From: Candidatus Nanoarchaeia archaeon
GTDB taxonomy: Archaea; Nanobdellota; Nanobdellia; SCGC-AAA011-G17; GW2011-AR18
DNA: 64,000 bases
Direction of reading: 5' to 3'
NCBI GenBank assembly: GCA_035289605.1
Contig: DATDWR010000020.1
Coordinates: 10,921-74,920 of the forward strand
In this document: piece after piece, positions 19,482 to 36,213 of the stretch
How the letters are laid out: the number at the start of each line of letters is the position of its first letter
Numbering within the stretch: position 1 is the stretch's first letter
Made by a program: the position numbers and the translations under genes
Notes under the pieces: generated by a model
What the model was told of the DNA's origin: nothing
Database searches by the model: none
The model's input: the letters and a program-made list of their open reading frames with translations, nothing else

Positions 19482-19486
19482 AAATT

Positions 19487-21181: not shown

Positions 21182-21203
21182 TAGAAGAAGATTTCTGGTG
21201 ATT

Positions 21204-21932: not shown

Positions 21933-22018
21933 TAAATGCTTAAATTTATATTATTAATAAATATTATTATATAATTATACACAAAAACGATAAATATATA
22001 AATATTAATATATTTTAT

Positions 22019-23005
22019 GTGTATATGAAGGAATTAGACCTTAAAGACTATAAAATTTTGTATGAACTAGATGTTAATGCCAGACAAAATGATTCTGAAA
22101 TAGCCAAAAAAGTAGGCTTAACAAGAGACTCAACCAGATACAGAATAAACAAATTAGTCGAAGAAGGTTATATCTATTATTTTATGACACTAATTAATTC
22201 AATGAAATTAGGTTACAATTGGTATAGGACATTTTTCAAATTTCAAAACTTAACAATTGAGAAAGAAAAAGAAATTATTGATTATCTAAAAGAAAAAACA
22301 AGCTGGATTTCCAAAGTAGAAGGATTTTGGGATCTAAACACAGGAATTTTTCTCGAAAACGTTTATGAGTACCGTGATTTTATTAATGAATTTTTATTGA
22401 AATATAGTTTATTCATCGAAAGATACAATGTTTCTATTGTTACAAGAGAATGGATTTACTGCCATGATTATCTTCTTAATAAAAAACAAAAGACCAACAA
22501 ACCAATTTTAATGGGATTTAATAATAAAAGTGAATATAAAGCAGAGAATATAGATAAAATGGATTATAAAATTCTCAAAACAATACTGAAAAATGCCAGA
22601 ATGAAAAGTATCGATATAGCAAGAGAAATAGGAACAACAGAAATAGTTATTAGATATCGTATCAAAAAGTTAATACAAAAAGGAATAATAATAGGATTCA
22701 AGCCATTTCTTAATATCAATAAACTTGGTTATACCTATTTTAAGCTTCATATAACATTACAAAATTTAACTAAAGAAAAAAAGAACTCTATTATAAATAA
22801 TATTCACCAACATCCCAACACAATCCACATGACAGAACTAGTGGGTGGTGCTGATATAGAATGCGAGTTTCAAGTAAAGACTAACGAAGAATTTTATCAA
22901 CATATACAAGAATTAAGAACAAAATTCAGTGATATTATAAGAGATTACAAATTTATGCAGTATACTAAAGAGTACAAATTTACTTATCTTCCTGAAATTT
23001 TTTAA
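22019..23005 (+). CDS. tandem double Lrp/AsnC-type HTH regulator
   Basis: Two repeats of the pattern D.KIL..L..NAR....IA...G.....YRI.KL...G.I (aa ~6-55 and ~180-230). The likely ATG is at 22025. Confidence 0.65.
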   Translation: MYMKELDLKDYKILYELDVNARQNDSEIAKKVGLTRDSTRYRINKLVEEGYIYYFMTLINSMKLGYNWYRTFFKFQNLTIEKEKEIIDYLKEKTSWISKVEGFWDLNTGIFLENVYEYRDFINEFLLKYSLFIERYNVSIVTREWIYCHDYLLNKKQKTNKPILMGFNNKSEYKAENIDKMDYKILKTILKNARMKSIDIAREIGTTEIVIRYRIKKLIQKGIIIGFKPFLNINKLGYTYFKLHITLQNLTKEKKNSIINNIHQHPNTIHMTELVGGADIECEFQVKTNEEFYQHIQELRTKFSDIIRDYKFMQYTKEYKFTYLPEIF

Positions 23006-23132
23006 AAAAATTATTCCTTTCTAGTCACTATACCTTCGCTATATTTGTGAAGAGAACAGTTATAGTTCCTTCTAGCTCAAGCGGTACAGTCACACACGTT
23101 ATAAAAAAGTCCAAAGAATAAACAAGGGACTT

Positions 23133-23468
23133 TTATGTTGTCAAATAATTGACTATTATTGGTGCTACCCAGATTAATCCTAGACCTATTACTATGTACA
23201 TTACTTTTGTTTTAGCTTGTTCTTTTTCTGAAGGATTATTGTTCATGAACATCTGAACAGCTGCAAATACTATAAACAGTAAAGCTAAGACACTAGCAGC
23301 ATACTTTACAAAATTATAGACTTTCATTACAGGTGCTAATATCTGGTTGAATGTGTTAACATCTGTTGAGCTTGGCCCTGTTATTGTTACAGCATGAACA
23401 CTATAGGCTAAAGGCAATACCATTAGTATTAGTGCTATTGTGCAGTTAAGCAGGTTGTTTTTCTTCAT
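23133..23468 (-). CDS. VirB2/TrbC/CedA1-like pilin candidate
   Basis: 111 aa with a signal peptide ending VHA. Two hydrophobic helices (AASVLALLFIVFAAVQMF and VMYIVIGLGLIWVAPIIV) are separated by a short charged loop. This is the conjugative-pilin topology. Confidence 0.5.
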   Translation of the reverse strand: MKKNNLLNCTIALILMVLPLAYSVHAVTITGPSSTDVNTFNQILAPVMKVYNFVKYAASVLALLFIVFAAVQMFMNNNPSEKEQAKTKVMYIVIGLGLIWVAPIIVNYLTT

Positions 23469-23757
23469 TATTATTCACCTCCACGAACATTTTTCTAAAG
23501 CCTTCAAACTCGTCTTTAGGCATTAGAGTTTCACTACTGCCAGCATTCTCAACTTTAGGAGTGATTTTACCATGAACTTTTTTCTTAACAAGCAAGAACT
23601 TAACTGTCAAGAACACCAGCAGTAAAAGTGCTCCAATACCCAAAAATATGAAAAAAGTCTCTAAATCCAACTTGAACAGTAAACTAACAGTTATGCTTAA
23701 CGGAAGATACAATATCCAAAACATGAAATAATAAGCTATTAGTTTGCTAGTTTTCAT
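23446..23757 (-). CDS. small 2-3 TM membrane protein
   Basis: The likely start MKTSKLIAYYF at 23757 overlaps the stop of the upstream Zn-ribbon ORF. The ORF track extends it to 23787. Confidence 0.4.
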   Translation of the reverse strand: MKTSKLIAYYFMFWILYLPLSITVSLLFKLDLETFFIFLGIGALLLLVFLTVKFLLVKKKVHGKITPKVENAGSSETLMPKDEFEGFRKMFVEVNNNEEKQPA

Positions 23758-23923
23758 ATTTGCCTCCTTTCTTGTAAGCTTTGACAATTCTAGCTACTTT
23801 TTTCACGCTTCCATACTTTGATAATAAAAAATCAAAACAAGTCTTGCACAAAGTAAACCTGTCAAGTATAATGCTAAAATTTCCTGACTCTCTTTTGCAT
23901 AATTTGCACATTTTTGTTTTCAT
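23747..23923 (-). CDS. 58-aa zinc-ribbon protein
   Basis: Own translation: MKTKMCKLCKRESGNFSIILDRFTLCKTCFDFLLSKYGSVKKVARIVKAYKKGGKYEN (CxxC...CxxC). It is below the ORF-track cut-off. Confidence 0.35.
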   Translation of the reverse strand: MKTKMCKLCKRESGNFSIILDRFTLCKTCFDFLLSKYGSVKKVARIVKAYKKGGKYEN

Positions 23924-24117
23924 AAAAGTAAATTGGCATAGAGAAATATAAATGTCCTTAACAATTTTGGAGCAAAAATGGAGTCAACAGCGTTGCAACT
24001 AGAATGTAGCAAGACACTTTAGAAAGATATTTAAAGAAAATTCAACCTATAATTATATTAAAAAATTAGACGATTTACTTTTCAGGCGATAACGCTATAC
24101 ACCGGCGGGCTTTTGCA

Positions 24118-24131
24118 TGTTCCCCGCATTA
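24118..24131 (+). repeat. candidate attR core TGTTCCCCGCATTA
   Basis: Exact copy of 5777-5790. Its last 3 nt are the stop codon (complement) of the 248-aa membrane-protein gene. Confidence 0.6.
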
Positions 24132-24875
24132 CATTTTAGAAACTTTCTTGACAAAATACAATCTTTGAAAATTTATCAAAATCAACAAAATAACTAACAA
24201 AACAGAAGGAACAACTATAGAATATTCAGCAAACGACAACACAAAAATAACCAATATTAGGAACAAGAAAAGAGCATTTGTCAATAATACTAAGATATAA
24301 AAAAATATAAATCTCCTGAAATTTTTTACTGCAAAAACAATTGACTGTTTGAATTTTGAATTCCTTGACAACAACACCAACAAAAAGTAATATGATATAA
24401 GCAGTAAAACAACAGAAACAACAAGTAATATAATATTATTAGAACCTAAATCCAGATAAACAAAAGCCAAATAATTAAGAAACTGCACAATAGAAAAGAA
24501 AAACAAGAGCAAAGGAAGAATTGAATAAACAAAAAAGTTCTTTATAGAAATTCCGCTAGAAATTTTCCATAATAAAGAATAGAATATTAAAGATAAAACT
24601 AACAAAACAATAGGAATAATAACCTGATTCAAAAGAATAGCCTTATCCAAAGTCTTTTCTACAGTGTCAAGCCTGTTCTGAACCTCTTCCTTATTATAAG
24701 ATGTTAAAGATTCTTTTCCTAAATTTTCTTGAAGCTGAGATAATTCAGGAGTAAACTCTTGGACTTCTATTAAATAATTTCTAGTCTTGTCTCTTGCATA
24801 AAACAATAATGAAATTAAAATTACAGCAAAGAGGAGTTCTATAAGAAAAGTGAATAATAGTTTTTTATTTTTCAT
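24129..24875 (-). CDS. polytopic membrane protein (last gene of surface-protein operon)
   Basis: ~6 TM helices. Its start overlaps the upstream stop by 4 nt (ATGA). Confidence 0.6.
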   Translation of the reverse strand: MKNKKLLFTFLIELLFAVILISLLFYARDKTRNYLIEVQEFTPELSQLQENLGKESLTSYNKEEVQNRLDTVEKTLDKAILLNQVIIPIVLLVLSLIFYSLLWKISSGISIKNFFVYSILPLLLFFFSIVQFLNYLAFVYLDLGSNNIILLVVSVVLLLISYYFLLVLLSRNSKFKQSIVFAVKNFRRFIFFYILVLLTNALFLFLILVIFVLSFAEYSIVVPSVLLVILLILINFQRLYFVKKVSKM

Positions 24876-26314
24876 TGTGCCGTACTTATAGAGCTCTGAG
24901 TCGCATATTTTACTGAAAATGCTATTTCATTGTAATCAATAGCTTTACTTTTTTGCACTTGGAAAACTTTTCTTTGTGCGCCTTTCATAATAATTATTTT
25001 GGGGAAGTTTGGTTCTATAAATACCCCTCCCTCTCTTGGTAAAAATGGTTCTTTTTTATTTACTTCTTCTACAATTACACTCAATCCCCCTTCTATGGTG
25101 TTTTCTTTTTCTAGTCTATTTAATACATTTTTAAACCAATTATCAGGAGTAAAATCAAACTCAAATGAAAAAAATGGAGCGTTAATTTCCTTAGTTTTAG
25201 CACTTAAAAACTTTTTGTCTTTTGCTCTTTTCCATTTCCATTCATCAGAGAATATAAATTGCAAATTAGTTACTGAAGGATTTCCATCTTCTATTTCTAT
25301 TAATGTTTGTGAAAGCTCTTTTTTCTGTTCCTCTCTTTCTTGCACTTCTTGTTTTTTCTCTTTCTCTATAGCTTGAGACCTTTCATATACCCTACTTATT
25401 ACGGTATTATAAATAATTTTTTGTTTTTTACCTGATGGATAAGCCTCAAAAGTTTGTAATTTTTCATTTTCTGGATCCTGGCTTAATAAAATTAATTTAG
25501 AAGAAATTTCTCCTTCTACGAAGTTTGGTTTTTTATTATTCACTTGCTCTATCATAATTTTTATTCCTTCTTCAAAACTAAATCTATTTTTTCTAAGATT
25601 GATTATAATTGATTTAAACCATTCAGAAGATAAACCATCATTTGATATATCTAAATCATTAAATTCCTTTTTATTTTTAGTTCTCCACTTCCACGAGCCA
25701 TCAAACATAAATTGTAAGTTCGGTTCTCTTAAGTTACCATCTTCTATTTCTATTATTATATTATTAACCAAATTTGTGACACTCTCTTTAGTTTCCTGTT
25801 CTTCTGTAACTTCTATACTCTCACCAAAACCTTCTGCGCAACAATACAGATCACCTTCACCACAACAATATTCTCCATTACAAGACCTGCCTGTGATACA
25901 ATTACTCGGATCTGGTTTTTGTCCTGGAGAAAGTTTCTGGCAAGAGAAAGGCTTTCCATAAGTTGCAGTGACTTCTGCACACAAAGATTTTTTTTGAAGC
26001 TTTTCAGTCTTAGCTTCTTTCTTAATCTCATCAACAGGAAGTGCTTGAAATTCCCTTCTTAGCTCAGCAATTTGCTTAAACCCGAGAGCATTATTATACA
26101 AAGCCTGGGCACGAACATCAGGATCAAGAGAAGCTCTCTCAAGGGTGTTATAAGAATAAGCATTAGCTGCAGTTTCAGGAGCCTTTAGAGTAGAATATTT
26201 ATCAAGCAAATCTTTTACATTTGCAGTGCCGTCAGTTAAAGATTCAAAATCTTCTTTAGCATAAGCAACATTCAATATTAATATTAATAAAATAAATGGA
26301 ATCAACTTTTTCAT
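24872..26314 (-). CDS. secreted protein with Cys-rich module and internal duplication
   Basis: Signal peptide MKKLIPFILLILILNVAYA, module SCQK...CITGRSCNGEYCCGEGDLYCC, and two ~85-aa repeats (IEIEDGN...NLQF.F...WKW). Confidence 0.7.
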   Translation of the reverse strand: MKKLIPFILLILILNVAYAKEDFESLTDGTANVKDLLDKYSTLKAPETAANAYSYNTLERASLDPDVRAQALYNNALGFKQIAELRREFQALPVDEIKKEAKTEKLQKKSLCAEVTATYGKPFSCQKLSPGQKPDPSNCITGRSCNGEYCCGEGDLYCCAEGFGESIEVTEEQETKESVTNLVNNIIIEIEDGNLREPNLQFMFDGSWKWRTKNKKEFNDLDISNDGLSSEWFKSIIINLRKNRFSFEEGIKIMIEQVNNKKPNFVEGEISSKLILLSQDPENEKLQTFEAYPSGKKQKIIYNTVISRVYERSQAIEKEKKQEVQEREEQKKELSQTLIEIEDGNPSVTNLQFIFSDEWKWKRAKDKKFLSAKTKEINAPFFSFEFDFTPDNWFKNVLNRLEKENTIEGGLSVIVEEVNKKEPFLPREGGVFIEPNFPKIIIMKGAQRKVFQVQKSKAIDYNEIAFSVKYATQSSISTAQ

Positions 26315-29300
26315 GGCTTCACCTCAGCAGCCGGGCAGCAATATAAATTACCCTTGCCACAACAGTATTTACCATCACACTGCGGACCTGTGATACATCT
26401 CTTACTTTCAGCTTCACTTAATGTACTTTTCTGGCAGCTGTAAGATTGGCCTAAAGAACTATATAATTTATTAACATCATCACAATTTTTAGGCTTCTCC
26501 TGAACAGTAGCTGAAGCCTTTCCTTTCTTAGCATTTTCAAGTAAATTTCTCAAAGCAAGAAGCAAACTATTTCTTTGTTCATTCAATAAATACAATATTT
26601 CCCTGCTTCTTTCCTTATCAAGAAGAGTGATAGCCTTATCAATATCACCACGCTCAGCCAATGCCTTAAACAAATCACTTCTAACTTCAGCATCATCAAT
26701 ATTAATAGAGTGAGTATCAAGCCAGCAATCACCAAGATCTCTTCCCTGAGCATTCTTGCCACAAGTACCAACATCCTTCCATCTTCCAGGCTCAGGAGTA
26801 GGCTCTGTATTGCTGCAAACCCTAATAATACCAGTAGACAACAAACCTTGCTCAGCGTTTGACGTCAAAAGACCTACAGTTGGAGTTGGAGTTGCAAGAC
26901 CAGCAGCAAAAGGACTAGCAGCAGCAAGCTTAGCCAAAGAGTAAGAAGCAGAACGTCTTTGATTAGGACTGCACTGATCAACAGACTTAATCTCTTCCTT
27001 AGCTTCACTGGCAGTCAAGAAATCATTAGCTTCCTTAATTCCGAAAGAACTGCTAACCTTGCCAAAACCGCACTGCTCAACACCATTAATGTTAACACAA
27101 ACTTCATTGTAGCCTTTAATTGCAGGCTTCTGAACTGTCTGCTGCGCATATTTTCCAGGCTCAATAGTTCCCTGAGTCTGAACAGCAAAATCTCCAGGGA
27201 ATGTAACAGAGAGAGGAGGCAAGTTTGACTGCCTATTGACAAGATAAACAGAATATGAAACAGGCCTCTGCTGTCCAGGCTGGACACTAGGAATAAGAAC
27301 ATTATTATTTGAATTCAAAACACCATAAGACTGAGAATAACTTCCCTTGTAAAATCCTGTTCCTGCATAAATATGATAAAATACTTTATACAAAGACAAT
27401 TCCTGAGCGCCGAAAACTCCAGGAGCAAAACCAGCACTCTGGCCAGGAGAAGCATAAGGAGCCTCATCAAAGAAAGCCTCAAACTGAGGAGGATCTTCAG
27501 GCTCAGTCAACTGGTCAATAATCTTTCCGATACTAGGAAGCTTTCCATTAACACTCAACCTGCAAATCTGTGTACCTATCTCATCAGTGGATTGGGACAA
27601 GAACTGAGCAGTATAAGTTGCTTCATACTCCTTTGTGAAAACATTGACTGAGTTGCCAACATTATCAAAGCTGGACTTAAACTTCAAGTACTCGCCGCCA
27701 CCCTCTGCCTCGCCAAATACTTTTCCTGAAACCCAATCAACAATTCCCCTTCCACCAATATCCAACAAATTATAGGTTTCTCTCCAAACTAACTCACAAA
27801 TACCAACAGACCTTATATAATCACAGAAGCCAACATCACGATTCTGCTTCAACTTAATTTCAAGACAGTCAACATAACCCTGTAAGATACTTCTAATTCC
27901 TTTGAGGCCAGCATCTATGCCAGTTAAGCACACAGGAACAGCAATACCCTCCTTGATATTTGGGAGACACAATAATGTGGAGCCTGCAATACCAGACTGA
28001 ATAACATTTCTTGGAGGAACCCTGCCGCCTAAAGTACATCTAGAGCCGGGACACATGACAGGATCACAAGCATTAAACAACAACTTGCAATCACTAGGAT
28101 CCATGACATCAATGCATTTCGGCTGCAAAGCTGAAGACAAAGTTTCAGATGAAGACTTCCTGCACCTAACTGGTTTGCCATCAACATTTCCAACAGTCTC
28201 GCTACCATCACCTTTCTTGCACTGCCTCAAGCCATTCCCAATCACAACAGCCTTGCTCTTCAAAGCAGTATTAATCTCCAAAGCAGAAACATGACCACCA
28301 GGCTTTGCAACATCATCACCTGCAGCACACTCTATCCTTCCATTAGGACCAACATTCCAGAGACTAATCTTGCTAATTAATTTATTGCCCTTGAACCCTT
28401 CCTCAACAACAGCATAATCTCCCTTACCAACAGGATAACAGTAAGGAAACCCGTTCTCGTCATGGAAAGACTCTAAAGACTCTCCGTAAGAATAAGAACT
28501 GCTAAGGAAACCAGCATCTGAAAAACCTATTGTAGAAGCAAGAAGCTTAGGCTTACAAAATTCCCCCTCTATAACACCAACAGCATCACATCTTGCACGA
28601 TCAATTTCAGTATTTAATTTTAAGTTGACAAGCTTTTCGTTTTTAATAAATTCAGAAGGAACAAAAATCCTATGGCCTGAAGAATGAACATACTGATCTT
28701 TTTCCATCTGCTGCCTTACACTTTCTGTTTTAATTTCCTTACTTTTTTTATCCATGCATTTACCATTGGAAAATTTTCCGCCACTTCTTTCACATAATTC
28801 TTGACTCAAAATATTTTCATCAGGATACCCAAGTTCATACTTATAATGATCAAGCTGGCTTATTCTACTAATGCTAACAGGCTGATCACCAAGAACAACA
28901 GAACCTTTCTTGCCATCATTATCTATCTTAGGCCTTACAAGAAGAATATCCTTAAAGCCTTCAGCTTTCTTCTGCTCCAAAGAATATATAATATCCTGGA
29001 CATCATCTTCCTTTTCAGGATTGTAAAGACCATTAGATGCCTGAGCAATTTCCTTAGCTTTATTGTACAAAGCGACTTTTTCATTAACACCAACAGCCAA
29101 AATTTTTTCATTAAGATAATTCTTGTAATTACTGTCAACAGAAGCATCAGACTGAACTTTAGAATTCAAAAGACAATCCCTATATTCTCTAATAATATTC
29201 TGATCATTAGCACCTGAGCTTTTGCTAGCAACCCAAAACTCCTTAAAGCTTTTACAATTAGCATCTGCAAGACCTGAGTCAGCAAGATCCTGAGCAGTTT

Positions 29301-31965
29301 TTCCTTTAATCACATCCTGAACTTCACCCATATGTTTCTGAGTTGAGTCAACAGAAGATTTAATCTCATCAGAATAATGATTCAAACAACGATCAACAGT
29401 CTTGAATTCAGGATGAGCATCAGTCCTACCTTCAATCTTTTCTTGAGTGCATCTTTCCTTAAAGCTATCAGAAACATATTTTCTAGCCAAAGATCTTCCT
29501 GTGCCCTGCAGGAAAGAACTTTTTACAGTCAGGAAAGCAAATGTTGCCAAGCAAACTTTCTTCCAGGTTTTTATAACATCATCCATCTTCTTAATAATCC
29601 TGTCAAGCTGTTCGATAATTTTTCTTGTAGTCTTTATATGAGACTCAAGCTGTTCAGGAGTCCACTCAAAAGGCCTAGGATCTACAGGAATATTTACTCT
29701 AAAACTTGAAGTAGTGAAAGCCCTGCCAGTTCCAGGAATAATAGTAATGTAAGCCTCATAATCAGTCTCGATTCTGTCAACCTTAATTTTAACAACTTTT
29801 GAATTACCAAATCTTTCCTGTGAAGTAGGATTGACATACTCGAAAGAAGAAGGAATTTCAACAATCTCATTAGGCTTAAGAGTTATAGATGAAACTTTAT
29901 CCTGAGGAGCAGGAGCATTTGTTTCCTTGTTGTAAAGCCTGATAGTAACTGCAGTAGGCTGAATCCTCTCAACACGCCACTCCCACTTAGACTTTGGAAT
30001 TTTTATGTCCTGCATATTCAAAGGAAGAAAAACATTTGCAAGATCCTTTATTGTTGAACCTTCAATCACAGAACCAGGAGACAAAAATTCTGGCTTAGGA
30101 GAATTCCTTTCATCAAGAGCAGACTCTATTTTATCATTCTCACCTTCTTTAGATATAAGGCTGAATTCAACTTTTCCCTGCTTTCTAGGATCAATCTTCT
30201 CAACCTGCTTCAAAGTCAAGGACATGCCCTCATCAACAAGATACACTGGGGTGCTCTTAGACAAGAACCATTCCTTTAATCTGTCTTTATTATCAACTTT
30301 GGAATAATAATAGTAAGCAAGAGAATCCATATCAGCCTTGAATTTTCTGCAATCATCCAATACCTTTGTATTTTCAACAAAGCAAGCCTTGTAATTAATT
30401 AATTTCTTCTCGTATAATTCGGCAAGATCATTCATAGATTTCTTAGATTCTGGACTGCTTGAATATTCTTTCAATAATCTTTTGTATCTTAGCACAGCAT
30501 TGCATGCAACATCCTCATTCTCATCTTCAGGACAGTACTCTCTTTCAAGAGCCTCTGCCTCATCATCAGAAACAGGAGACAAATTAATATTCATAGGCTT
30601 GCCATTAACAGAAATCACATCAGAAGTTACAGTTTTTACTTCATCGCTGAACTGGTTCTCTATATCAGCAACATGATGCATAACAGAAACATCATTCAGA
30701 ACTCCCTCAGCATTTTTTTCAGAAACTATTTTTAATATAAATTCCCTATTTTTAGAATCAAGATTAAAATCCTTAGCAATCTTGTCAATATTCACAGATG
30801 TTACTTGTTCAGATTTCCTAGCAGAAACACTCTTTACAACCCAAGGAGAACGAGCAAAAATCTTGGCTCCTACAGAAATTTTTCTAGTAAACTGCTTTCC
30901 ATTAACTTCAAAAGTCAATTCTGCCCTATCCTGAGGAGTGGCTATATCATCCAGCCTTACCTGAAAAAAATCCTGCAAAGAATTTCCAGAATATCCAAAA
31001 GAAATAGGCTGAGAAACTTGACCCTTTGTCAAACGCAAAAAGCTCCTAGTCTGCAAGCCCTGAGACTGAGAAGCTGTCTGCTGCTGCAACGGAGCAAAGG
31101 AAATAGGGAAAAGATTTTTGTTATAGACCTGCAAAGTAACAGAATCCTGAGTAATAGCAGTTGATCTTACAAAGCCCTTGCCAGAAAAGAATGAAAACCC
31201 TTCTTTATTTTCCAGAAATTCCTTTTCATCAGGACTAATTTTCAATGCAAGGGACTGCTCAGAAACACCAAACAAAGTGCTTTCCTCAAGATCAAGATAA
31301 ATTTTTGCATCAAGATCAAGGACAATATTATTATCAGGAGGAGTAGCATTCTGGGATGGCAGCTTCCTCAAGTAAACAATAAGGAATCCCAAATTATCCA
31401 AAGAATATCTCTCTCTTTGAGGAGGTACATAATTAATTGACCTTACATACTGAGAATATTTTGAAGAAGCATTAGGAAGAACCTGAATATACTGAATACG
31501 AGGAATTTGGGTAATACCTGAAAAAATATCTCCAGATGAAGGATCATTAGTAAACGGAGAAAGAGCAGTTCCGAGAGTAGTTCCCTTAAGGTAAACAAAA
31601 ACAGGAGCATCCTGCTGCTCCAATAAAGACTGCCTGACTTGTTTTGGCTCATAGTCAGCAACATTTACGATAATAGCCTCTCCCAAATTCTGCTCGAAAC
31701 CATAGCTGTAACCACCTGTCTGCCTTCTAACAGCATCTGCGAAAGGATCATTGTATGCATAGCCGCCAAGAGAACTTCCAAAAATAGGATCTTTGTTAAA
31801 ACTAGCTGGAGTTGAATAAGAATTAGGATTAGAATAAAACGGACCGTAAGGAGAAGCTCCTTGAACATTAGAAGGATAAGGCTGCTGGAAATACTGAGCA
31901 GAAACAATAGGAAGAGAAACTATCAAAAACATGCAAAACATTGAAATAAAAATTTTAGACTTCAT
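26311..31965 (-). CDS. giant (1884 aa) secreted Cys-rich surface protein
   Basis: Uninterrupted 5.65 kb ORF with a Sec signal ending VSAQ and many Cys. The C-terminal module is SCQK...CITGPQCDGKYCCGKGNLYCC. No known domain recognised. Confidence 0.8.
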   Translation of the reverse strand: MKSKIFISMFCMFLIVSLPIVSAQYFQQPYPSNVQGASPYGPFYSNPNSYSTPASFNKDPIFGSSLGGYAYNDPFADAVRRQTGGYSYGFEQNLGEAIIVNVADYEPKQVRQSLLEQQDAPVFVYLKGTTLGTALSPFTNDPSSGDIFSGITQIPRIQYIQVLPNASSKYSQYVRSINYVPPQRERYSLDNLGFLIVYLRKLPSQNATPPDNNIVLDLDAKIYLDLEESTLFGVSEQSLALKISPDEKEFLENKEGFSFFSGKGFVRSTAITQDSVTLQVYNKNLFPISFAPLQQQTASQSQGLQTRSFLRLTKGQVSQPISFGYSGNSLQDFFQVRLDDIATPQDRAELTFEVNGKQFTRKISVGAKIFARSPWVVKSVSARKSEQVTSVNIDKIAKDFNLDSKNREFILKIVSEKNAEGVLNDVSVMHHVADIENQFSDEVKTVTSDVISVNGKPMNINLSPVSDDEAEALEREYCPEDENEDVACNAVLRYKRLLKEYSSSPESKKSMNDLAELYEKKLINYKACFVENTKVLDDCRKFKADMDSLAYYYYSKVDNKDRLKEWFLSKSTPVYLVDEGMSLTLKQVEKIDPRKQGKVEFSLISKEGENDKIESALDERNSPKPEFLSPGSVIEGSTIKDLANVFLPLNMQDIKIPKSKWEWRVERIQPTAVTIRLYNKETNAPAPQDKVSSITLKPNEIVEIPSSFEYVNPTSQERFGNSKVVKIKVDRIETDYEAYITIIPGTGRAFTTSSFRVNIPVDPRPFEWTPEQLESHIKTTRKIIEQLDRIIKKMDDVIKTWKKVCLATFAFLTVKSSFLQGTGRSLARKYVSDSFKERCTQEKIEGRTDAHPEFKTVDRCLNHYSDEIKSSVDSTQKHMGEVQDVIKGKTAQDLADSGLADANCKSFKEFWVASKSSGANDQNIIREYRDCLLNSKVQSDASVDSNYKNYLNEKILAVGVNEKVALYNKAKEIAQASNGLYNPEKEDDVQDIIYSLEQKKAEGFKDILLVRPKIDNDGKKGSVVLGDQPVSISRISQLDHYKYELGYPDENILSQELCERSGGKFSNGKCMDKKSKEIKTESVRQQMEKDQYVHSSGHRIFVPSEFIKNEKLVNLKLNTEIDRARCDAVGVIEGEFCKPKLLASTIGFSDAGFLSSSYSYGESLESFHDENGFPYCYPVGKGDYAVVEEGFKGNKLISKISLWNVGPNGRIECAAGDDVAKPGGHVSALEINTALKSKAVVIGNGLRQCKKGDGSETVGNVDGKPVRCRKSSSETLSSALQPKCIDVMDPSDCKLLFNACDPVMCPGSRCTLGGRVPPRNVIQSGIAGSTLLCLPNIKEGIAVPVCLTGIDAGLKGIRSILQGYVDCLEIKLKQNRDVGFCDYIRSVGICELVWRETYNLLDIGGRGIVDWVSGKVFGEAEGGGEYLKFKSSFDNVGNSVNVFTKEYEATYTAQFLSQSTDEIGTQICRLSVNGKLPSIGKIIDQLTEPEDPPQFEAFFDEAPYASPGQSAGFAPGVFGAQELSLYKVFYHIYAGTGFYKGSYSQSYGVLNSNNNVLIPSVQPGQQRPVSYSVYLVNRQSNLPPLSVTFPGDFAVQTQGTIEPGKYAQQTVQKPAIKGYNEVCVNINGVEQCGFGKVSSSFGIKEANDFLTASEAKEEIKSVDQCSPNQRRSASYSLAKLAAASPFAAGLATPTPTVGLLTSNAEQGLLSTGIIRVCSNTEPTPEPGRWKDVGTCGKNAQGRDLGDCWLDTHSINIDDAEVRSDLFKALAERGDIDKAITLLDKERSREILYLLNEQRNSLLLALRNLLENAKKGKASATVQEKPKNCDDVNKLYSSLGQSYSCQKSTLSEAESKRCITGPQCDGKYCCGKGNLYCCPAAEVKP

Positions 31966-33992
31966 GATGCAGGACCTACATTAGGATACTTGAACAACTG
32001 ATGATCATTATTAGTTTCAACTTCTAACTGAATTCTCTGCAAACCCTCAATACTAGAAGGCATAGGAGAAGACAATATGTAAAGATTCAAAGGCTCATCA
32101 GACGACAACTGGCTTCTGTCAAATGACACTTCGAAATTAGCACCTCCAGTCAAAACATAATCAAGCTCCAAAGGCTCAGTTTCTGTGCTAAAACATTTCT
32201 TAGTAGTCTTGAACAAGCCAAGAAGACCTGGAGATCTAGTGTCAACACAAGTCTCAACCTCCTCCTTATCTAAAATAATTTTCCAAGTGCTATTTCTTAC
32301 AACGAAAGAATTTACTTTATAATCACCAATTAATAAATTAACTTCATTATTCTCAGGATAATTAAAATTAGAATTATATGTTGCTAATTTATGAATGAAC
32401 TGAAAACTAACCTGCTCAGAATCATAAGGATCTCTAAACTCTCCAGTATCCTTATCAATTACAAAAACATTTACTTTCTTCTTGTACAAAGGCTCTAATA
32501 CTACTAATGCTTCTGGAGGAGTGTTCGGATCATTAGACGAGTACAAAGTCTTTCCTGCAAAATAACCTTCCTTCTTTCCTTCAATAATTCCATTATAGCA
32601 CAAAGGAAGAGCTGCTTTTAATGAAGGTTCACTTTCTGCTGACGAAACTCCCAAAGGACATGAAGCAGGGAAGCACTTAAAGCTCAAGCTAACTTCCTTC
32701 AAAGGAACAGTATTCTCAGAATCATCAACAGTTCCAGTAAATACCTTAACAGGCTTTTGGGGATACTGACAGAGCTGAGTTGAAGGATCTGGAACGTCTA
32801 GAGATGTGAGACGATTAATACGAGGCTGATTATTATCAACTATAACCTGAGTAGCAAACTGGAAGATCAAGCCATCTGGAGATCTTAGCGTAACTAGTAC
32901 GGGATATTTAATATCATAAACAAACCTGTAAGAATTAAGACAAAAAATAGAAGACAGGAAAGAAGAAGCAAAACCTCCTGTTTTTTTCGTAACCTGATCT
33001 GATCTAAGAATATCTTCCTCTGAAGGGTTTATTTCAATAAGAGTAGGCCAATTAGGAATATAGCTTAATGAAGCAGTAACATCCTTGCGTGAAGACTTGA
33101 GAGCATTGAATTCCATATACTTTAATTTTTTATTTATCAATTCAACATTTGTGTCCTTAACAGAAACAGCAGCAACATTCTCATAAATAATATTTTTCAA
33201 TCTTCTGGAAACATCTGATTTGTACCAGATTTTTTCATTACAACTAAAATCAGTACCAGAAAAAGGGACTTCCTCATTATAAGCAACAAGCATATTAATA
33301 GTCTGGTTCTCTAAAAAATAACCAGTGTTCTCGGCATCAAAAATTTCACGAGCCATATCAAAGAGTTCTCCAAAACTTGAACCTACGCTAGCCTTGTGCT
33401 CAACCAAGTTAAAATCTGCATCCTGAATTTTTACCTTTACAGGATACCTAACACTAATGTCTACTTTTTTATCAGATATTCCAGACTGCGTCAAAGGAAA
33501 TGGAGACAAAGTAATTTCGTAACCTTTCTCCTCAAAGGAAGTAAGATTATTAATACAAGAAGCAAAATTCCTGTCAACATAAGAAGAAATCTGCTTCTCA
33601 ACCTGCTGCTTGGAAGGAACATTAATTTCCTGCAAGCCATTGCCCCTTTCCCTAAACCAAACAGAAGTCCTGAAATCAGAGCCAGGTATTATTTCCAAAG
33701 TTGATGACAAAGGAGAAAATTCTGTAGAAGGAACATCATCTGTCGGCAAATCCAAATAACCTCCTTGAAAAGCCACGGTCTGAATAGCCTGCTGACCGAG
33801 ATTATGGACACAAGTATTCAAAGAATCCTGCACAGGAGCAATCTGCAAAGGAACTAATTGCCTTTCTTTGGTTATCTTCTCAAACAGGCTTTTGAAAAAC
33901 CCTTGCTTTACTGCGACAATACCAACAACAATAATTATTATTATGATTCCAAGTATTACAAAAGCTGTAGCTTGTCCCCTCTTTTTCATCAA
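31962..33992 (-). CDS. large (676 aa) extracellular protein with pilin-like (class III-like) N-terminus
   Basis: The N-terminus MMKKRGQATAFVILGIIIIIIVVGIVAV has a basic stretch, G-Q, then a ~20-residue hydrophobic helix. It is the first gene of the operon. Confidence 0.7.
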   Translation of the reverse strand: MMKKRGQATAFVILGIIIIIIVVGIVAVKQGFFKSLFEKITKERQLVPLQIAPVQDSLNTCVHNLGQQAIQTVAFQGGYLDLPTDDVPSTEFSPLSSTLEIIPGSDFRTSVWFRERGNGLQEINVPSKQQVEKQISSYVDRNFASCINNLTSFEEKGYEITLSPFPLTQSGISDKKVDISVRYPVKVKIQDADFNLVEHKASVGSSFGELFDMAREIFDAENTGYFLENQTINMLVAYNEEVPFSGTDFSCNEKIWYKSDVSRRLKNIIYENVAAVSVKDTNVELINKKLKYMEFNALKSSRKDVTASLSYIPNWPTLIEINPSEEDILRSDQVTKKTGGFASSFLSSIFCLNSYRFVYDIKYPVLVTLRSPDGLIFQFATQVIVDNNQPRINRLTSLDVPDPSTQLCQYPQKPVKVFTGTVDDSENTVPLKEVSLSFKCFPASCPLGVSSAESEPSLKAALPLCYNGIIEGKKEGYFAGKTLYSSNDPNTPPEALVVLEPLYKKKVNVFVIDKDTGEFRDPYDSEQVSFQFIHKLATYNSNFNYPENNEVNLLIGDYKVNSFVVRNSTWKIILDKEEVETCVDTRSPGLLGLFKTTKKCFSTETEPLELDYVLTGGANFEVSFDRSQLSSDEPLNLYILSSPMPSSIEGLQRIQLEVETNNDHQLFKYPNVGPAS

Positions 33993-34064
33993 GAAAATAA
34001 GCCATTTTTATGTATATAAATATACCGCTAGTTTTTTAAATAGTTAGAATATGTTTTTTATAAA

Positions 34065-34259
34065 ATGACGCACAAGATACATGGAAGGAAAAGAAGATAC
34101 CTGGCAAGAGGGCCTGAAAGAAACAGAAAAGCAAGACCTAAAACCTTTAAAAGTGAAGCAGAAGCAAGAAAGTACGCAGAAAAACATGTTATAAAAGAAT
34201 ACCTGATAGAAAGAATGAATTATGGGTTAAGCAAGAAATTTAGAATTGTGAAAAAATAA
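34065..34259 (+). CDS. small basic hypothetical protein
   Basis: 64 aa, Lys/Arg-rich. Its stop overlaps the start of the Nudix gene. Confidence 0.35.
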   Translation: MTHKIHGRKRRYLARGPERNRKARPKTFKSEAEARKYAEKHVIKEYLIERMNYGLSKKFRIVKK

Positions 34260-34762
34260 TGCCAACTGATGGATTATTAGATTTGATAGATGATAACGAA
34301 CAAGTAATAGATACTAAACCAAGATCTGAAGTTTATAAGCATGGATTAAACAATTTTCAAGTAATCAATGTTTTTGTAAAAAATTCTGAAGGAAAACTAT
34401 GGATACCTAGAAGAGGACCGAACAAAAGAATTTTTCCCTTGTGTTTAGATGTGAGTGTTGGAGGCCATGTTGAAAGTGGTGAAAGTTATTATGAAGCTTT
34501 TAAGCGTGAAACAAAAGAAGAAATTGATGTAGACATAATAACAAATGGTTTTACATATTTAGGACATTTAACACCTCAACAATATGGAGTCTCTGCATAT
34601 ATGGAAGTGTATGAAATAAAACTTGATGAAGTAAAAAATTATAATAAAGATGACTTTGTTGAATATTATTGGCTTTATCCGAAAGAAGTAATTGAAAGAC
34701 TGACAAATGGAGACAAAGCTAAAGACGACCTGCCAAAATTAGTCAAGCATTTTTATCTTTAA
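34259..34762 (+). CDS. Nudix hydrolase
   Basis: Nudix box GGHVESGESYYEAFKRETKEEIDV. Confidence 0.8.
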   Translation: MPTDGLLDLIDDNEQVIDTKPRSEVYKHGLNNFQVINVFVKNSEGKLWIPRRGPNKRIFPLCLDVSVGGHVESGESYYEAFKRETKEEIDVDIITNGFTYLGHLTPQQYGVSAYMEVYEIKLDEVKNYNKDDFVEYYWLYPKEVIERLTNGDKAKDDLPKLVKHFYL

Positions 34763-35339: not shown

Positions 35340-35434
35340 TGGGCCCACCCAGATTCGAATTCCCCGATCATTTTCAGATCTCTGGGGACCTCTTCGACGT
35401 CAACGAAGTGTCATAACCACTAGACCATGAGCCC
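35340..35434 (-). tRNA. tRNA-Val(GAC) with 22-nt insertion at the T-stem/T-loop junction
   Basis: Reverse complement folds as GGGCUCA UG GUCU AGUGGUUA UGAC A CUUCG UUGACGU CGAAG AGGUC CCCAG [agatctgaaaatgatcggggaa] UUCGAAU CUGGG UGGGCCC A. Confidence 0.85.
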
Positions 35435-35502: not shown

Positions 35503-35760
35503 ATGTTTAAATGTATGGTAAAGACAATAACAGTAATGGATGATGCATATGAAATGCTTAAAAGAATGAAAAATAAAGATGAAAGTTTTAGTGATGTAAT
35601 AAGAAAGTGTGTGTCATGTAGATCTACAGACTTAAAAAAATGGCTTGGAATATTAGGGAAAGATGAATCAAGAACAAAAGAATTTAAAGAATTTTTAACA
35701 AAAACAAGAAAAGAAACATCAAAAGATATAGAGACTAGAATTTTCAAACTAAAGAGGTAA
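35503..35760 (+). CDS. antitoxin (VapB-like, archaeal small antitoxin family)
   Basis: KTITVMDDAYEMLKRMKNKDESFSDVIRK pattern, immediately upstream of a PIN gene. Confidence 0.6.
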   Translation: MFKCMVKTITVMDDAYEMLKRMKNKDESFSDVIRKCVSCRSTDLKKWLGILGKDESRTKEFKEFLTKTRKETSKDIETRIFKLKR

Positions 35761-35762
35761 AA

Positions 35763-36140: not shown

Positions 36141-36213
36141 TACATTTTTAATCATAATTATTTTTAAAAATCAAATAGCAAAGTATAAATAGAAGTATTA
36201 CTTAGTATAACTT

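What the first reader, a model, noticed from the sequence alone, without database searches (positions are those of the whole stretch)
24129..33992. Four-gene, translationally coupled operon for giant Cys-rich surface proteins, abutting the element's right repeat
The minus-strand genes of 676, 1884, 480 and 248 aa are linked by three 4-nt ATGA start/stop overlaps (31962-31965, 26311-26314, 24872-24875). The first has a pilin-like N-terminus, the next two have Sec signals and many cysteines, and the last is a polytopic membrane protein. None shows a domain I recognise. By eye the DNA is distinctly more GC-rich, and the proteins richer in G/P/Q/S, than the rest of the window. Ten kb devoted to one secreted complex in a small genome suggests a cell-surface apparatus, perhaps for host attachment or cell-cell contact. 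Its position next to the DNA-transfer element may be functional or coincidental.
Basis: partly seen in the sequence, partly recalled or inferred. Interest (0 to 1): 0.7.

Follow-up and report, generated by a model that had tools for sequence, protein, structure and literature searches.

The report
Conserved DPANN surface operon, swappable wall-cutting tips
This four-gene operon is real and is a chromosomal gene set shared by hundreds of ultrasmall Woesearchaeota/Pacearchaeota archaea: a pilin-like anchored stalk protein plus a giant secreted protein whose tip carries bacterial cell-wall-cutting enzymes in many relatives (though not in this genome), which suggests a device for attaching to and breaching bacteria.

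Summary
There are four minus-strand genes of 675/676, 1884, 480 and 248 aa, joined by three ATGA overlaps. None matches Pfam, NCBIfam, PHROGs or PDB sequences.

The operon does not belong to the neighbouring DNA-transfer element. Relatives have the same core genes on both sides of the operon, and none of 82 loci has a VirB4, T4SS pilin or TrbL-like gene within about 10 kb. In this window an 18.3-kb integrase/VirB4/pilin block, bounded by a 14-nt direct repeat, has inserted at the 3' end of gene 4.

- **Spread:** genes 1 and 2 are adjacent in 75 of 82 loci, and 168 GTDB species, all Woesearchaeota/Nanoarchaeia, carry a gene 1 relative. A 4-nt overlap occurs in 52 of 75 loci.
- **Gene 1:** it has a conserved K-R-G-Q-V-T class III (prepilin-type) N-terminus. 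A confident AlphaFold model shows tandem β-sandwich stalk domains.
- **Gene 2:** its core of about 1,700 aa is conserved and Cys-rich, but the C-terminal tip varies. Relatives carry SLT, M23, NlpC/P60, DPBB/3D, M15, lysozyme, SH3 or GDSL domains there.
- **Gene 3:** it looks like a detached tip, with Amidase_2, M23 or SLT domains in relatives.
- **This genome:** its copy has no recognisable hydrolase.

My best reading is a surface complex for contact with bacteria and breaching of their walls. The giant family was noted before (Castelle 2021). I found no description of the operon architecture or the swappable tips.

The parts
34013..34020 (-). TATA-box-like TTTATATA, 23 nt upstream of the gene 1 ATG. 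Candidate archaeal promoter for the operon (short or absent leader).
   Evidence: Sequence read directly. An inference from position only. The tool's promoter scan is a sigma-70 model and does not apply to archaea.
31962..33992 (-). Gene 1 (675 aa from the ATG at 33989). Pilin-like anchored stalk protein.
   Evidence: ORF. More than 160 full-length homologues of 640-727 aa, all from DPANN. 9,118 representative clusters at E<=1e-3 and 1,614 at E<=1e-30. AF2 model with mean pLDDT 90.4. Foldseek best hits are tandem CnaB/Ig-like adhesins and pilins and the SlaB S-layer stalk.
33909..33989 (-). Class III (prepilin-type) signal-like N-terminus of gene 1: MKKRG|QATAFVILG… followed by a 22-residue hydrophobic helix.
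   Evidence: Family column counts out of 79: K3 73, R/K4 76, G5 74, Q6 76, T8 66, F10 64, G14 74. It matches the KG|QV/QI/QL processing sites of EppA-dependent pilins (PMC4371748). It is the only such ORF in the window.
32070..32762 (-). All-β tandem sandwich (Ig/CnaB-like) region of gene 1, residues about 410-640.
   Evidence: DSSP of the AF2 model. Foldseek hits to SdrD, RrgC, TIE, SpaA and SlaB.
26311..31965 (-). Gene 2 (1884 aa). Giant secreted protein with a Sec signal peptide (residues 1-23, 31897-31965). It has no TM or sorting signal at its C-terminus.
   Evidence: 16 full-length homologues at 32-60% identity. Found directly after gene 1 in 75 of 82 loci.
26506..31698 (-). Conserved core of the giant (residues about 90-1820), present in every complete orthologue.
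   Evidence: phmmer domain coordinates across the giant ORFs of the 75 loci that carry gene 2. Invariant columns in A1 and A4.
26716..28221 (-). Most conserved, cysteine-dense segment of the giant (residues 1249-1750), with more than 20 invariant Cys. Fold unknown.
   Evidence: No PDB sequence or fold match. AF2 has low confidence here.
26335..26484 (-). 8-Cys module forming the short variable 'tip' of this genome's giant (residues 1828-1877). Orthologues carry SLT, M23 and other hydrolase domains at this position.
24872..26314 (-). Gene 3 (480 aa). Secreted accessory, probably a detached tip: signal peptide, helical region, the same 8-Cys module, then two repeats of unknown fold.
   Evidence: Homologues carry Amidase_2, M23, SLT or M15. 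The gene 3-like region is fused to the giant in L022. Gene 3 follows all 7 giants with a tail under 100 aa, against 5 of 42 with longer tails.
25838..25981 (-). 8-Cys module of gene 3 (residues 112-159), homologous to the giant's C-terminal module.
   Evidence: blastp of the giant's C-terminus against gene 3: 42% identity, E = 2e-14. The motif C..CC..CC occurs only in gene 3-type ORFs that directly follow the giant (one of them also matched the giant's C-terminal module), out of 4,693 ORFs in the fetched loci, and in both the giant and gene 3 of the window.
25046..25768 (-). Two internal repeats of about 90 aa in gene 3 (residues 183-263 and 334-423). Function unknown.
   Evidence: blastp of one half against the other: 33% identity, E = 1e-16.
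24129..24875 (-). Gene 4 (248 aa). Polytopic membrane protein with a conserved acidic residue in its first TM helix.
   Evidence: for hydropathy. An iterated HMM finds it directly after gene 2 or gene 3 in 29 of 45 evaluable loci. N-terminal alignment.
24118..24131 (+). Right copy of the 14-nt direct repeat TGTTCCCCGCATTA. It marks the boundary between the operon and the inserted integrase/T4SS-like element and overlaps the gene 4 stop codon. It is the boundary of the operon, not a working part of it.
   Evidence: The insertion is inferred from relatives.

Best explanation
This is the local copy of a lineage-wide chromosomal operon of Woesearchaeota/Pacearchaeota. It most likely builds a cell-surface complex for contact with bacterial cells and local attack on their cell wall.

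Proposed mechanism, marked as shown or inferred:
1. The four genes are transcribed together and translated in a coupled way (inferred from the ATGA overlaps, which are conserved across species).
2. Gene 1 is inserted into the archaeal membrane by a class III, prepilin-type N-terminus (motif shown; cleavage after Gly5 by an EppA/PibD-type peptidase inferred). Its tandem β-sandwich domains form a stalk projecting from the cell (model confident; role inferred).
3. Gene 2 is exported by Sec. It has no anchor of its own, so it is probably held by gene 1, perhaps also by gene 4, as a long disulfide-stabilised projection (inferred).
4. The C-terminal tip of the giant is an exchangeable working end. 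Across species it carries alternative peptidoglycan-cleaving or -binding modules (shown for orthologues).
5. In the clade containing this window, the tip is partly or wholly split off as gene 3, which shares a helical + 8-Cys junction module with the end of the giant (shown). Gene 3 probably docks onto the giant or works alongside it (inferred).
6. Gene 4, a polytopic membrane protein with a conserved charged residue in TM1, would serve as a membrane platform or assembly factor (inferred).

This genome's copy has no recognisable hydrolase. Its tip is the Cys module, plus the two repeats of unknown fold in gene 3, so its enzymatic or binding specificity is unknown.
For: - **Real, coupled operon:**
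- **Conservation and linkage:** 168 GTDB species, all Woesearchaeota/Nanoarchaeia. Gene 1 is followed by gene 2 in 75 of 82 loci, gene 4 is present in 29 of 45 evaluable loci, and a 4-nt overlap occurs in 52 of 75.
- **Family size:** 9,118 clusters for the gene 1 family.
- **Ancestral chromosomal position:** the operon lies between DHH-CID/R_40157 and S8e/L_2330 orthologues.
- **Class III motif:**, compared with the KG|QV sites in PMC4371748.
- **Stalk-like fold:** pLDDT 90.4 with CnaB/Ig-like adhesin and SlaB matches.
- **Variable tips on a conserved core:**
- **Tip domains (47 tails scanned):** SLT in 14, M23 in 3, NlpC/P60 in 2, and DPBB_1, 3D, M15_4, Phage_lysozyme2 and SH3_4 in 1 each, with SH3_3 in 2 and GDSL_2 in 4. 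SLT+M23 were mapped to the C-terminus. A Muramidase and a glucosaminidase occur on further relatives.
- **Gene 3 homologues:** Amidase_2, M23, SLT and M15. Tail-less giants and gene 3 are complementary, 7 of 7 against 5 of 42. The region is fused in L022.
- **Shared 8-Cys module:** E = 2e-14.
- **Literature:** large LT-domain proteins specific to Woese-/Pacearchaeota were already proposed to bind bacterial walls (PMC8204110; PMC9723730).
Against: - Nothing here shows localisation, expression, complex formation or enzymatic activity.
- The window's own genes 2 and 3 have no detectable hydrolase. The wall-breaching function rests on orthologues and may not apply to this organism.
- About half of the scanned tails also have no Pfam match.
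- The giant's conserved core has no fold or sequence match, and AF2 models it poorly. The part that is actually conserved is therefore unexplained.
- Gene 4 is missing in 16 of 45 evaluable loci.
- No prepilin peptidase or pilus ATPase gene is in the window, and whole genomes could not be scanned.
- No bacterial host of any Woese-/Pacearchaeon is established, to my knowledge.
Confidence: 0.55

Rival explanations
1. Two-component S-layer or envelope scaffold. The giant would be the lattice or canopy protein and gene 1 its membrane-anchored stalk, functionally like SlaA/SlaB of Sulfolobales. The hydrolase domains would be lineage-specific decorations.
For: The pair is universal across the lineage, sits at a fixed core-genome position and is translationally coupled, as expected for a stoichiometric structural pair. 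The gene 1 model hits the SlaB stalk (8qox_B, prob 0.98) among β-sandwich proteins. The giant has a Sec signal and no anchor of its own. To my knowledge no other S-layer candidate is known for these lineages.
Against: The TM-scores to SlaB are low (0.13/0.18), and the hit is a generic tandem β-sandwich. Gene 1 is anchored at the N-terminus by a pilin-type signal, whereas SlaB has a C-terminal TM (established knowledge). From general knowledge, S-layer proteins usually diverge fast, yet the giant's Cys-dense region keeps dozens of invariant residues among species whose gene 1 products are only about 30% identical to the window's. Interchangeable enzymatic tips and a detachable tip gene are not features of known S-layer proteins.
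Confidence: 0.2
2. Type IV pilus tip complex. Gene 1 would be a large minor pilin incorporated at the tip of a type IV pilus made elsewhere in the genome. The giant would be its non-pilin adhesin partner, analogous to bacterial minor pilins plus PilY1, so the working end is presented on a retractable or extensible filament rather than on a fixed stalk.
For: The class III motif with +1 Gln is very strongly conserved and matches true pilin processing sites. The partner is Sec-exported and unanchored, as PilY1 is (established knowledge). Type IV pili drive episymbiont-host attachment in the analogous ultrasmall bacteria (PMC9894109, listed).
Against: No pilus ATPase, platform protein or prepilin peptidase lies within about 10 kb of the operon at the three distant-relative loci whose gene tables were read. 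The flanks of the other loci were compared only with this window's own proteins, which include none of these families. At 675 aa, gene 1 is far larger than structural pilins. In archaea, class III signals also serve non-filament proteins such as bindosome subunits (PMC4371748).
Confidence: 0.13
3. Released scavenging enzymes. The proteins would be shed or secreted to digest peptidoglycan debris for nutrition, with no cell-cell contact.
For: The relatives carry many glycosidase, amidase and peptidase domains. DPANN are auxotrophic scavengers according to PMC8204110 and PMC11537232.
Against: A conserved 1,700-aa non-enzymatic core, an obligatory membrane-anchored partner and a membrane protein in the same operon are hard to justify for free enzymes. 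This genome keeps the whole operon without any recognisable hydrolase.
Confidence: 0.08
4. Accessory module of the adjacent type IV secretion / conjugative element, for example its surface adhesin and wall-hydrolase set, like PrgB/PrgK of Gram-positive T4SSs.
For: A VirB2/TrbC-type pilin gene lies 660 nt downstream on the same strand. A VirB4-type ATPase and an integrase lie further left. SLT-type hydrolases are typical T4SS accessories (established knowledge).
Against: None of 82 related loci has a VirB4, T4SS pilin or TrbL-like ORF within about 10 kb. In relatives the operon is followed directly by the genes that lie beyond the element in this window. The element is bounded by a direct repeat that ends at the gene 4 stop codon.
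Confidence: 0.02

Closest known systems
Large extracellular lytic-transglycosylase-domain proteins of Woesearchaeota/Pacearchaeota ('fam00969', Castelle et al. 2021, PMC8204110; also Castelle 2015 for AR20; Vigneron 2022, PMC9723730)
   Same: They share the lineage, the size class (up to about 3,000 aa), a predicted extracellular location and an SLT/GH23 domain in many members. The AR20 genome carries the operon (L033). The published proposal was also binding or degradation of bacterial walls.
   Different: Identity with fam00969 is inferred, not verified, because the family list was not in the supplements held. The papers describe a single protein family defined by the LT domain. Here the LT domain is one of at least 10 alternative tip modules on a conserved core, and this window's member lacks it. 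The obligatory pilin-like partner, the detached-tip gene, the membrane partner and the fixed chromosomal position are not mentioned in the texts I could search.
Polymorphic toxin / contact-dependent effector proteins (CdiA, Rhs, evolved VgrG, LXG)
   Same: A very large conserved delivery or presentation region is followed by a C-terminal domain that differs between close relatives. The C-terminal region can occur as a separate downstream gene.
   Different: There is no sequence relationship and no T5/T6/T7 secretion system, only export by Sec. No variable immunity gene follows, as expected if the target (peptidoglycan) is absent from the producer. The payloads are wall hydrolases rather than nucleases or pore formers.
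Phage tail-associated lysins and tape-measure or tail-knob proteins carrying SLT/lysozyme + M23 domains (e.g. phi29 gp13), and T4SS wall hydrolases (VirB1, PrgK)
   Same: Wall-cutting domains (SLT, M23, NlpC/P60, Phage_lysozyme2) are mounted at the end of a large structural protein, so that they act locally at a contact site.
   Different: No PHROG match to any of the four proteins. There is no phage or T4SS context in relatives. This comparison rests on my knowledge of those systems, not on a test here.
Archaeal type IV pilin-like proteins with class III signal peptides (EppA substrates of Methanococcus; bindosome proteins of Sulfolobus)
   Same: The N-terminal K/R-G|Q-V motif followed by a hydrophobic helix.
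   Different: The protein is 675 aa with multi-domain globular and stalk regions. It has no +5 Glu and no Pfam Class_IIIsignal hit. Processing and filament incorporation are untested.
SlaA/SlaB two-component S-layer of Sulfolobales
   Same: A large secreted protein plus a membrane-anchored β-sandwich stalk protein, encoded side by side. Foldseek hits SlaB.
   Different: The gene order and anchor polarity are opposite, TM-scores are low, the core is strongly conserved in sequence, and the tips are enzymatic and variable.

Membership tests
Woese-/Pacearchaeota large LT-domain extracellular proteins (fam00969-type) | Occurs in Woesearchaeota/Pacearchaeota genomes | tested here: met
   Every hit that carries an organism name and all 80 listed GTDB loci are Woesearchaeota, Nanoarchaeia/Nanoarchaeota or unclassified 'archaeon' records. 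The single exception is one short contig labelled Ignavibacteria.
Woese-/Pacearchaeota large LT-domain extracellular proteins (fam00969-type) | Very large (up to ~3,000 aa), predicted extracellular | tested here: met
   The protein is 1884 aa with a Sec-type signal and no other TM segment. Orthologues range from 1,700 to more than 3,300 aa.
Woese-/Pacearchaeota large LT-domain extracellular proteins (fam00969-type) | Contains a murein lytic transglycosylase (SLT/GH23) domain | tested here: not met
   The window protein has no SLT hit even at E<=1. Full-length orthologues at 43-46% identity do have one, as do 14 of 47 tails. The window protein is therefore homologous through the core but lacks the name-giving domain.
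Archaeal class III signal peptide (type IV pilin-like) proteins | Short charged N-region, [KR][GA]|[ALIFQMVED][ILMVTAS] processing motif near the N-terminus, then a hydrophobic H-domain | tested here: met
   The N-terminus reads MKKRG|QATAFVILGIIIIIIVVGIVAV. The motif is conserved in 74-76 of 79 family members. Gene 1 is the only ORF in the window that passes the pattern.
Archaeal class III signal peptide (type IV pilin-like) proteins | +1 Gln and +5 Glu, as in EppA substrates | tested here: inconclusive
   +1 Gln is present in 76 of 79 members, but +5 is Phe/Tyr, not Glu. According to PMC4371748, +5 acidic residues occur in only a subset of archaeal pilins.
Archaeal class III signal peptide (type IV pilin-like) proteins | Cleavage by a prepilin peptidase; a peptidase gene in the genome | not testable with these tools
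   None of the window ORFs scanned matched a peptidase A24 family. Whole genomes could not be scanned. Cleavage needs biochemistry.
Type IV secretion / conjugation system component | Conserved genomic association with VirB4, VirB2 or VirB6 genes | tested here: not met
   No such ORF in any of 82 related loci, by iterated HMMs. The T4SS block in the window is an insertion.
Polymorphic toxin systems | Conserved N-terminal bulk with C-terminal domains that differ between orthologues | tested here: met
   The core (query residues ~90-1800) is present in all complete giants. Tails run from 0 to more than 1,000 aa and match 16 different Pfam families.
Polymorphic toxin systems | Cognate variable immunity gene immediately downstream; dedicated T5/T6/T7 secretion | tested here: not met
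   The downstream genes are the conserved gene 4 or core genes. Export is by a Sec signal. The analogy is therefore only architectural.
SlaA/SlaB-type S-layer | Stalk protein with β-sandwich domains and a C-terminal membrane anchor; canopy protein forming a lattice | tested here: inconclusive
   β-sandwich similarity to SlaB has prob 0.98 but TM-scores of 0.13/0.18. The anchor is N-terminal. Lattice formation cannot be tested here.

The most novel reading that the evidence does not exclude
Woesearchaeota and Pacearchaeota, among the most abundant uncultured archaea in groundwater and sediments, share one dedicated and previously undescribed surface nanomachine. It would consist of a prepilin-processed stalk, a giant disulfide-rich arm with a membrane-active conserved core and a swappable wall-cutting tip, and a membrane platform. 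With it they would dock onto and open bacterial cells, making this a cross-domain archaeon-on-bacterium episymbiosis or predation apparatus with no homologue among known secretion or attachment systems.
Probability: 0.3. Interest if true: 0.85.

Novelty: new variant of a known kind. Interest (0 to 1): 0.6.

Why it matters
Woesearchaeota and Pacearchaeota are widespread, ultrasmall and uncultured, and their hosts are unknown. Whether they live on bacteria rather than on other archaea is an open question. So far it rests on the sporadic presence of a lytic transglycosylase domain.

This analysis turns that hint into a defined, testable system:
- a conserved gene pair found at a fixed chromosomal site;
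- a partner protein with a prepilin-type signal;
- a confident structural model for the stalk;
- a catalogue of at least 10 alternative peptidoglycan-targeting tips.

The system offers concrete handles. The tips can be expressed and assayed, the stalk gives an epitope for labelling, and tip type can be correlated with co-occurring bacteria. It also shows that the nearby conjugation-like element is a separate, recently inserted entity.

Tried and rejected
1. **T4SS accessory idea.** It was prompted by the VirB2-type pilin just downstream. I rejected it after the synteny census and the flank comparison.
2. **Foreign origin inferred from GC.** Rejected. The excess is modest, lies at codon positions 1 and 2, and falls within the range of other genes. 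The operon also sits at its ancestral position.
3. **Sequence links to known families.** Pfam, NCBIfam and PHROGs gave nothing for the four proteins. Profile-versus-PDB searches with A1, A2 and A4 and a search with gene 3 gave only coiled-coil or noise hits.
4. **Fold of the giant.** The fallback alignment of 27 sequences gave mean pLDDT 63.5 and no significant Foldseek match (best E = 0.03).
5. **Viral fusogen or receptor-binding fold for gene 1.** Only generic tandem Ig-like matches appeared.
6. **Deepening the giant family.** A third homologue search with the most conserved segment returned only 10 fragments.
7. **Gene 4 as a pilin.** Its N-terminus (KKLLFTFLIELLF) resembles bacterial G-FTLIE pilins. 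The family lacks the -1 Gly and keeps only an acidic residue in TM1, so I do not call it a pilin.
8. **The att-like repeat.** It does not extend beyond 14 nt, so its role as an attachment site is plausible but not proven.
9. **Literature.** Searches found no description of the operon. The fam00969 member list was not in the supplements held.

Full report

Yes. The minus strand carries four consecutive ORFs:
- 31962-33992: 676 aa from a TTG, or 675 aa from the ATG one codon in
- 26311-31965: 1884 aa
- 24872-26314: 480 aa
- 24129-24875: 248 aa

The three junctions at 31962-31965, 26311-26314 and 24872-24875 all read ATGA on the coding strand.

- **Gene 1** starts MKKRGQATAFVILGIIIIIIVVGIVAV. It has one hydrophobic helix and 10 Cys.
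- **Gene 2** has a Sec-type signal (…PIVSA|QYF), 43 Cys and no other hydrophobic segment.
- **Gene 3** has a Sec-type signal (…VAYA|KED) and 8 Cys, all within residues 112-159.
- **Gene 4** has about six hydrophobic helices and no Cys.

None of the four matches a Pfam, NCBIfam or PHROG model or a PDB sequence.

The composition remark is only weakly true. Genes 1 and 2 have GC 0.36 and 0.384, against 0.317 ± 0.038 for 45 other genes in the window. That gives z = 1.1 and 1.8, and other genes reach 0.389. The excess lies at codon positions 1 and 2 rather than position 3. Gene 3 is average and gene 4 is GC-poor. This reflects amino-acid composition (more P, Q and S in both, more G in gene 2; fewer K and I), not a foreign origin.

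**2. Source and surroundings**

Identical proteins occur on metagenome contigs, and named relatives are Candidatus Woesearchaeota / Nanoarchaeia. The regulators in the window (TrmB, Lrp/AsnC) and intron-bearing tRNAs fit an archaeon.

Immediately downstream of gene 4, on the same strand, lies a clear VirB2/TrbC-type T4SS pilin (23133-23468; PF18895, 7e-15). Further left are a VirB4-type ATPase with a PrgI-like N-terminus (12184-15324), a second weak pilin/TrbL-like protein (17527-18435) and a tyrosine integrase (5861-7204). This raised the possibility that the operon is a T4SS accessory module.

**3. The operon is not part of that element**

I fetched 80 loci encoding relatives of gene 1 from one genome per GTDB species. 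The scan found 168 species with a relative, all Woesearchaeota/Nanoarchaeia, including the complete AR20 genome. I added two further loci fetched through distant gene 1 homologues, called ORFs and searched them with iterated HMMs.

- A gene 2 homologue directly follows gene 1 in 75 of 82 loci. Most of the others end at or just past gene 1.
- The gene1/gene2 overlap is 4 nt in 52 of 75 loci and 8 nt in 7.
- Gene 4 follows in 29 of 45 loci with at least 900 nt of downstream DNA.
- Gene 3 is confined to about 14 close relatives.
- No locus contains a VirB4, T4SS pilin or TrbL-like ORF.

In relatives, the operon is preceded by orthologues of the window's right-flank core genes (42053, DHH-CID 40758, 40157, SRP54). 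It is followed directly by orthologues of window genes 4440, 4009 (ribosomal protein S8e by position) and 2330. In this window those three genes lie to the left of 5.7 kb.

The intervening 18.3 kb is bounded by an exact 14-nt direct repeat, TGTTCCCCGCATTA. One copy is at 5777-5790, 70 nt upstream of the integrase gene. The other is at 24118-24131, overlapping the gene 4 stop codon. The T4SS/integrase block is therefore an insertion at the 3' end of gene 4, and its adjacency to the operon is coincidental.

**4. Gene 1**

- **Family size.** The word-indexed search gave more than 160 full-length homologues of 640-727 aa. An exhaustive profile search of 1.84 billion cluster representatives gave 9,118 at E<=1e-3, 6,533 at E<=1e-10 and 1,614 at E<=1e-30.
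- **N-terminus.** It is the most conserved short stretch. The consensus is M-[KQ]-K-R-G-Q-V-T-x-F-I-I-L-G, with K3 in 73 of 79 sequences, R/K4 in 76, G5 in 74, Q6 in 76 and G14 in 74.
- **Match to pilin processing sites.** This pattern matches the processing sites listed for EppA-dependent pilins of Methanococcus maripaludis (KG|QV, KG|QI, KG|QL, with an essential +1 Gln; PMC4371748). The +5 position is aromatic rather than Glu.
- **Specificity.** A FlaFind-like pattern scan of every ORF in the window recovers only gene 1.
- **Structure.** AlphaFold2 with a 79-sequence alignment gives mean pLDDT 90.4. The model has a long N-terminal helix (4-44), α/β domains (~50-400), an all-β tandem-sandwich region (~410-640) and a short C-terminal helix.
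- **Fold matches.** The best Foldseek matches are tandem CnaB/Ig-like domains of Gram-positive adhesins and pilins (SdrD, RrgC, TIE, SpaA) and the SlaB S-layer stalk. Phage adhesin-like and tail decoration proteins also match. All have low global TM-scores, so this is a generic stalk-like architecture rather than a specific family.

**5. Gene 2**

Sixteen full-length homologues at 32-60% identity align over 96-100% of the protein. In the giant ORFs of the 75 loci that carry gene 2, the region matching query residues ~90-1800 is always present. It contains dozens of invariant residues, including more than 20 cysteines between 1249 and 1750.

Beyond the core, the C-terminal tail varies from 0 to more than 1,000 aa.

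- In P0004 and P0007 the tail holds SLT (~1872-1935) and Peptidase_M23 (~2103-2200). In P0009 and P0006 it holds SLT.
- A Pfam scan of 47 tails found SLT in 14, GDSL esterase in 4, M23 in 3, SH3_3 in 2 and NlpC/P60 in 2. One tail each had DPBB_1, 3D, Peptidase_M15_4, Phage_lysozyme2, SH3_4, Metallophos, DUF2272 and Big_7.
- Other relatives carry Muramidase PF11860, glucosaminidase PF01832 and OmpA + NAGPA + Metallophos (P0017).

Almost all of these domains cut or bind bacterial peptidoglycan, which archaea do not make.

The window's giant has only a ~60-aa tail, an 8-Cys module (residues 1828-1877). The core itself has no sequence or fold match. The AF2 model of residues 740-1884, built from 27 sequences, reached only pLDDT 63.5. 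It is reasonably confident for a helical-bundle/β region at ~770-1270 and poor for the Cys-dense segment.

**6. Gene 3 and gene 4**

- **Shared module.** Gene 3 shares with the end of the giant a helical stretch plus the 8-Cys module (42% identity, E = 2e-14). The motif occurs only in gene 3-type ORFs that directly follow the giant (one of them also matched the giant's C-terminal module), out of 4,693 ORFs in the fetched loci, and in both the giant and gene 3 of the window.
- **Repeats.** The module is followed by two ~90-aa repeats of unknown fold (33% identity, E = 1e-16).
- **Homologues.** They are 415-1,437 aa long and carry Amidase_2 (L012, L013, L014), SLT + M23 + Amidase_2 (L017), SLT (L019) or SLT + M15 (L023).
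- **Complementarity.** Every complete giant with a tail under 100 aa is followed by a gene 3 (7 of 7). Only 5 of 42 giants with longer tails are. These counts are not phylogenetically independent.
- **Fusion.** In L022 the gene 3-like region is part of the giant ORF.

Gene 3 is therefore best seen as a detached version of the variable tip. Gene 4 is a conserved polytopic membrane protein with an invariant acidic residue in its first helix but no -1 Gly, so it is not a pilin.

**7. Interpretation**

The best-supported model (confidence about 0.55) is a surface complex for contact with bacteria and local breaching of their wall.

- Gene 1 is a membrane-anchored, probably prepilin-processed stalk.
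- Gene 2 is a long disulfide-stabilised arm held by gene 1, with an exchangeable working tip.
- Gene 3 is a split-off tip subunit.
- Gene 4 is a membrane platform or assembly factor.

What is shown:
- the operon structure and its conservation;
- the signal motifs;
- the stalk-like fold;
- the conserved-core, variable-tip architecture;
- the peptidoglycan-directed domain repertoire in orthologues;
- independence from the T4SS element.

What is inferred:
- localisation, processing and complex formation;
- activity;
- the identity of the target cells.

One caveat matters. This genome's own operon has no recognisable hydrolase, so what it targets is unknown.

Rival explanations:
- A SlaA/SlaB-like S-layer (0.2). 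Universality and the stalk fold favour it. Strong core conservation and swappable enzymatic tips argue against it.
- A type IV pilus tip complex analogous to minor pilins + PilY1 (0.13).
- Released scavenging enzymes (0.08).
- A T4SS accessory module (0.02), effectively refuted.

**8. Relation to what is known**

Castelle et al. 2021 (PMC8204110) reported a Woese-/Pacearchaeota-specific family of proteins up to 3,000 aa with a lytic transglycosylase domain (fam00969). They proposed attachment to bacterial walls. Vigneron et al. 2022 (PMC9723730) and a 2025 survey of archaeal peptidoglycan hydrolases (PMC12352652) make related points.

The giant here almost certainly belongs to that family. I infer this from lineage, size and domain, because the member list was not available. 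The window's member lacks the LT domain.

I found none of the following described in the searchable literature:
- the obligatory, translationally coupled pilin-like partner and its structure;
- the view of the LT domain as one of many interchangeable tips on a conserved core;
- the detached-tip gene;
- the membrane partner;
- the fixed chromosomal locus.

I therefore rate this a new variant of a known kind, with interest about 0.6.

Noticed in passing
window 5777-24131: An ~18.3-kb integrated element bounded by the exact 14-nt direct repeat TGTTCCCCGCATTA. It carries a tyrosine integrase (5861-7204), a VirB4-type ATPase with a PrgI/VirB3-like N-terminus (12184-15324), a VirB2/TrbC-type pilin (23133-23468), a TrbL/pilin-like 302-aa protein (17527-18435), three TrmB regulators and one Lrp/AsnC regulator, three SAM methyltransferases, a ThyA-like gene and a Vut_1 transporter. 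It is absent from the same site in relatives. This looks like a conjugative or DNA-uptake (Ted-like) element in a DPANN archaeon, integrated at the 3' end of a protein-coding gene rather than a tRNA.
   Followed up: partly
L033 (AR20, CP010426) 20168-21382: A homologue of the window's integrase (E = 5e-23) lies about 700 nt downstream of the S8e orthologue that itself follows the operon in AR20. The region downstream of the operon may be a recurrent integration hot spot.
   Followed up: no
window 35340-35434, 37973-38112, 43511-43598 (all minus strand): Rfam finds three tRNA genes of 88-140 nt, presumably intron-bearing. ARAGORN reported only the third, with an odd anticodon call of 'ata' for tRNA-Tyr.
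   Followed up: no
window 35503-36908: Toxin-antitoxin genes (VapB and MazE antitoxins, two PIN-domain toxins) lie between the operon's upstream NUDIX gene and the core genes.
   Followed up: no
window ~34066-34260 (+): A 64-aa, very basic ORF is divergently transcribed from gene 1. ORFs of 64-65 aa also sit immediately upstream of gene 1 in two distant relatives. I did not test whether they are homologous.
   Followed up: no
window 24129-24875 and the gene 4 family: The first TM helix of gene 4 carries an acidic residue (E/D) in nearly all of the 32 relatives listed. In this genome the helix reads FTFLIELLF, resembling the bacterial pilin FTLIE motif but without the -1 Gly. The significance is unknown.
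   Followed up: partly
window 26716-28221 (giant residues 1249-1750): This is the most conserved part of the whole operon. It has more than 20 invariant cysteines and Gly-rich, moderately hydrophobic helices (e.g. VIQSGIAGSTLLCLPNIKEGIAVPVCLTGIDAGLKGI). It has no sequence or fold match, and AF2 confidence is low. It could be a membrane-active module, but that is pure speculation.
   Followed up: partly
window 50742-52622, 59155-60384, 61658-62605, 62602-63525: Four sizeable ORFs (626, 409, 315 and 307 aa) in the core-gene region have no Pfam match at E<=1e-4.
   Followed up: no
P0142: A fragment of a giant homologue carrying a glucosaminidase domain is labelled 'Ignavibacteria bacterium' in NCBI. 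It sits on a 2.9-kb contig and is probably mis-binned archaeal DNA.
   Followed up: no
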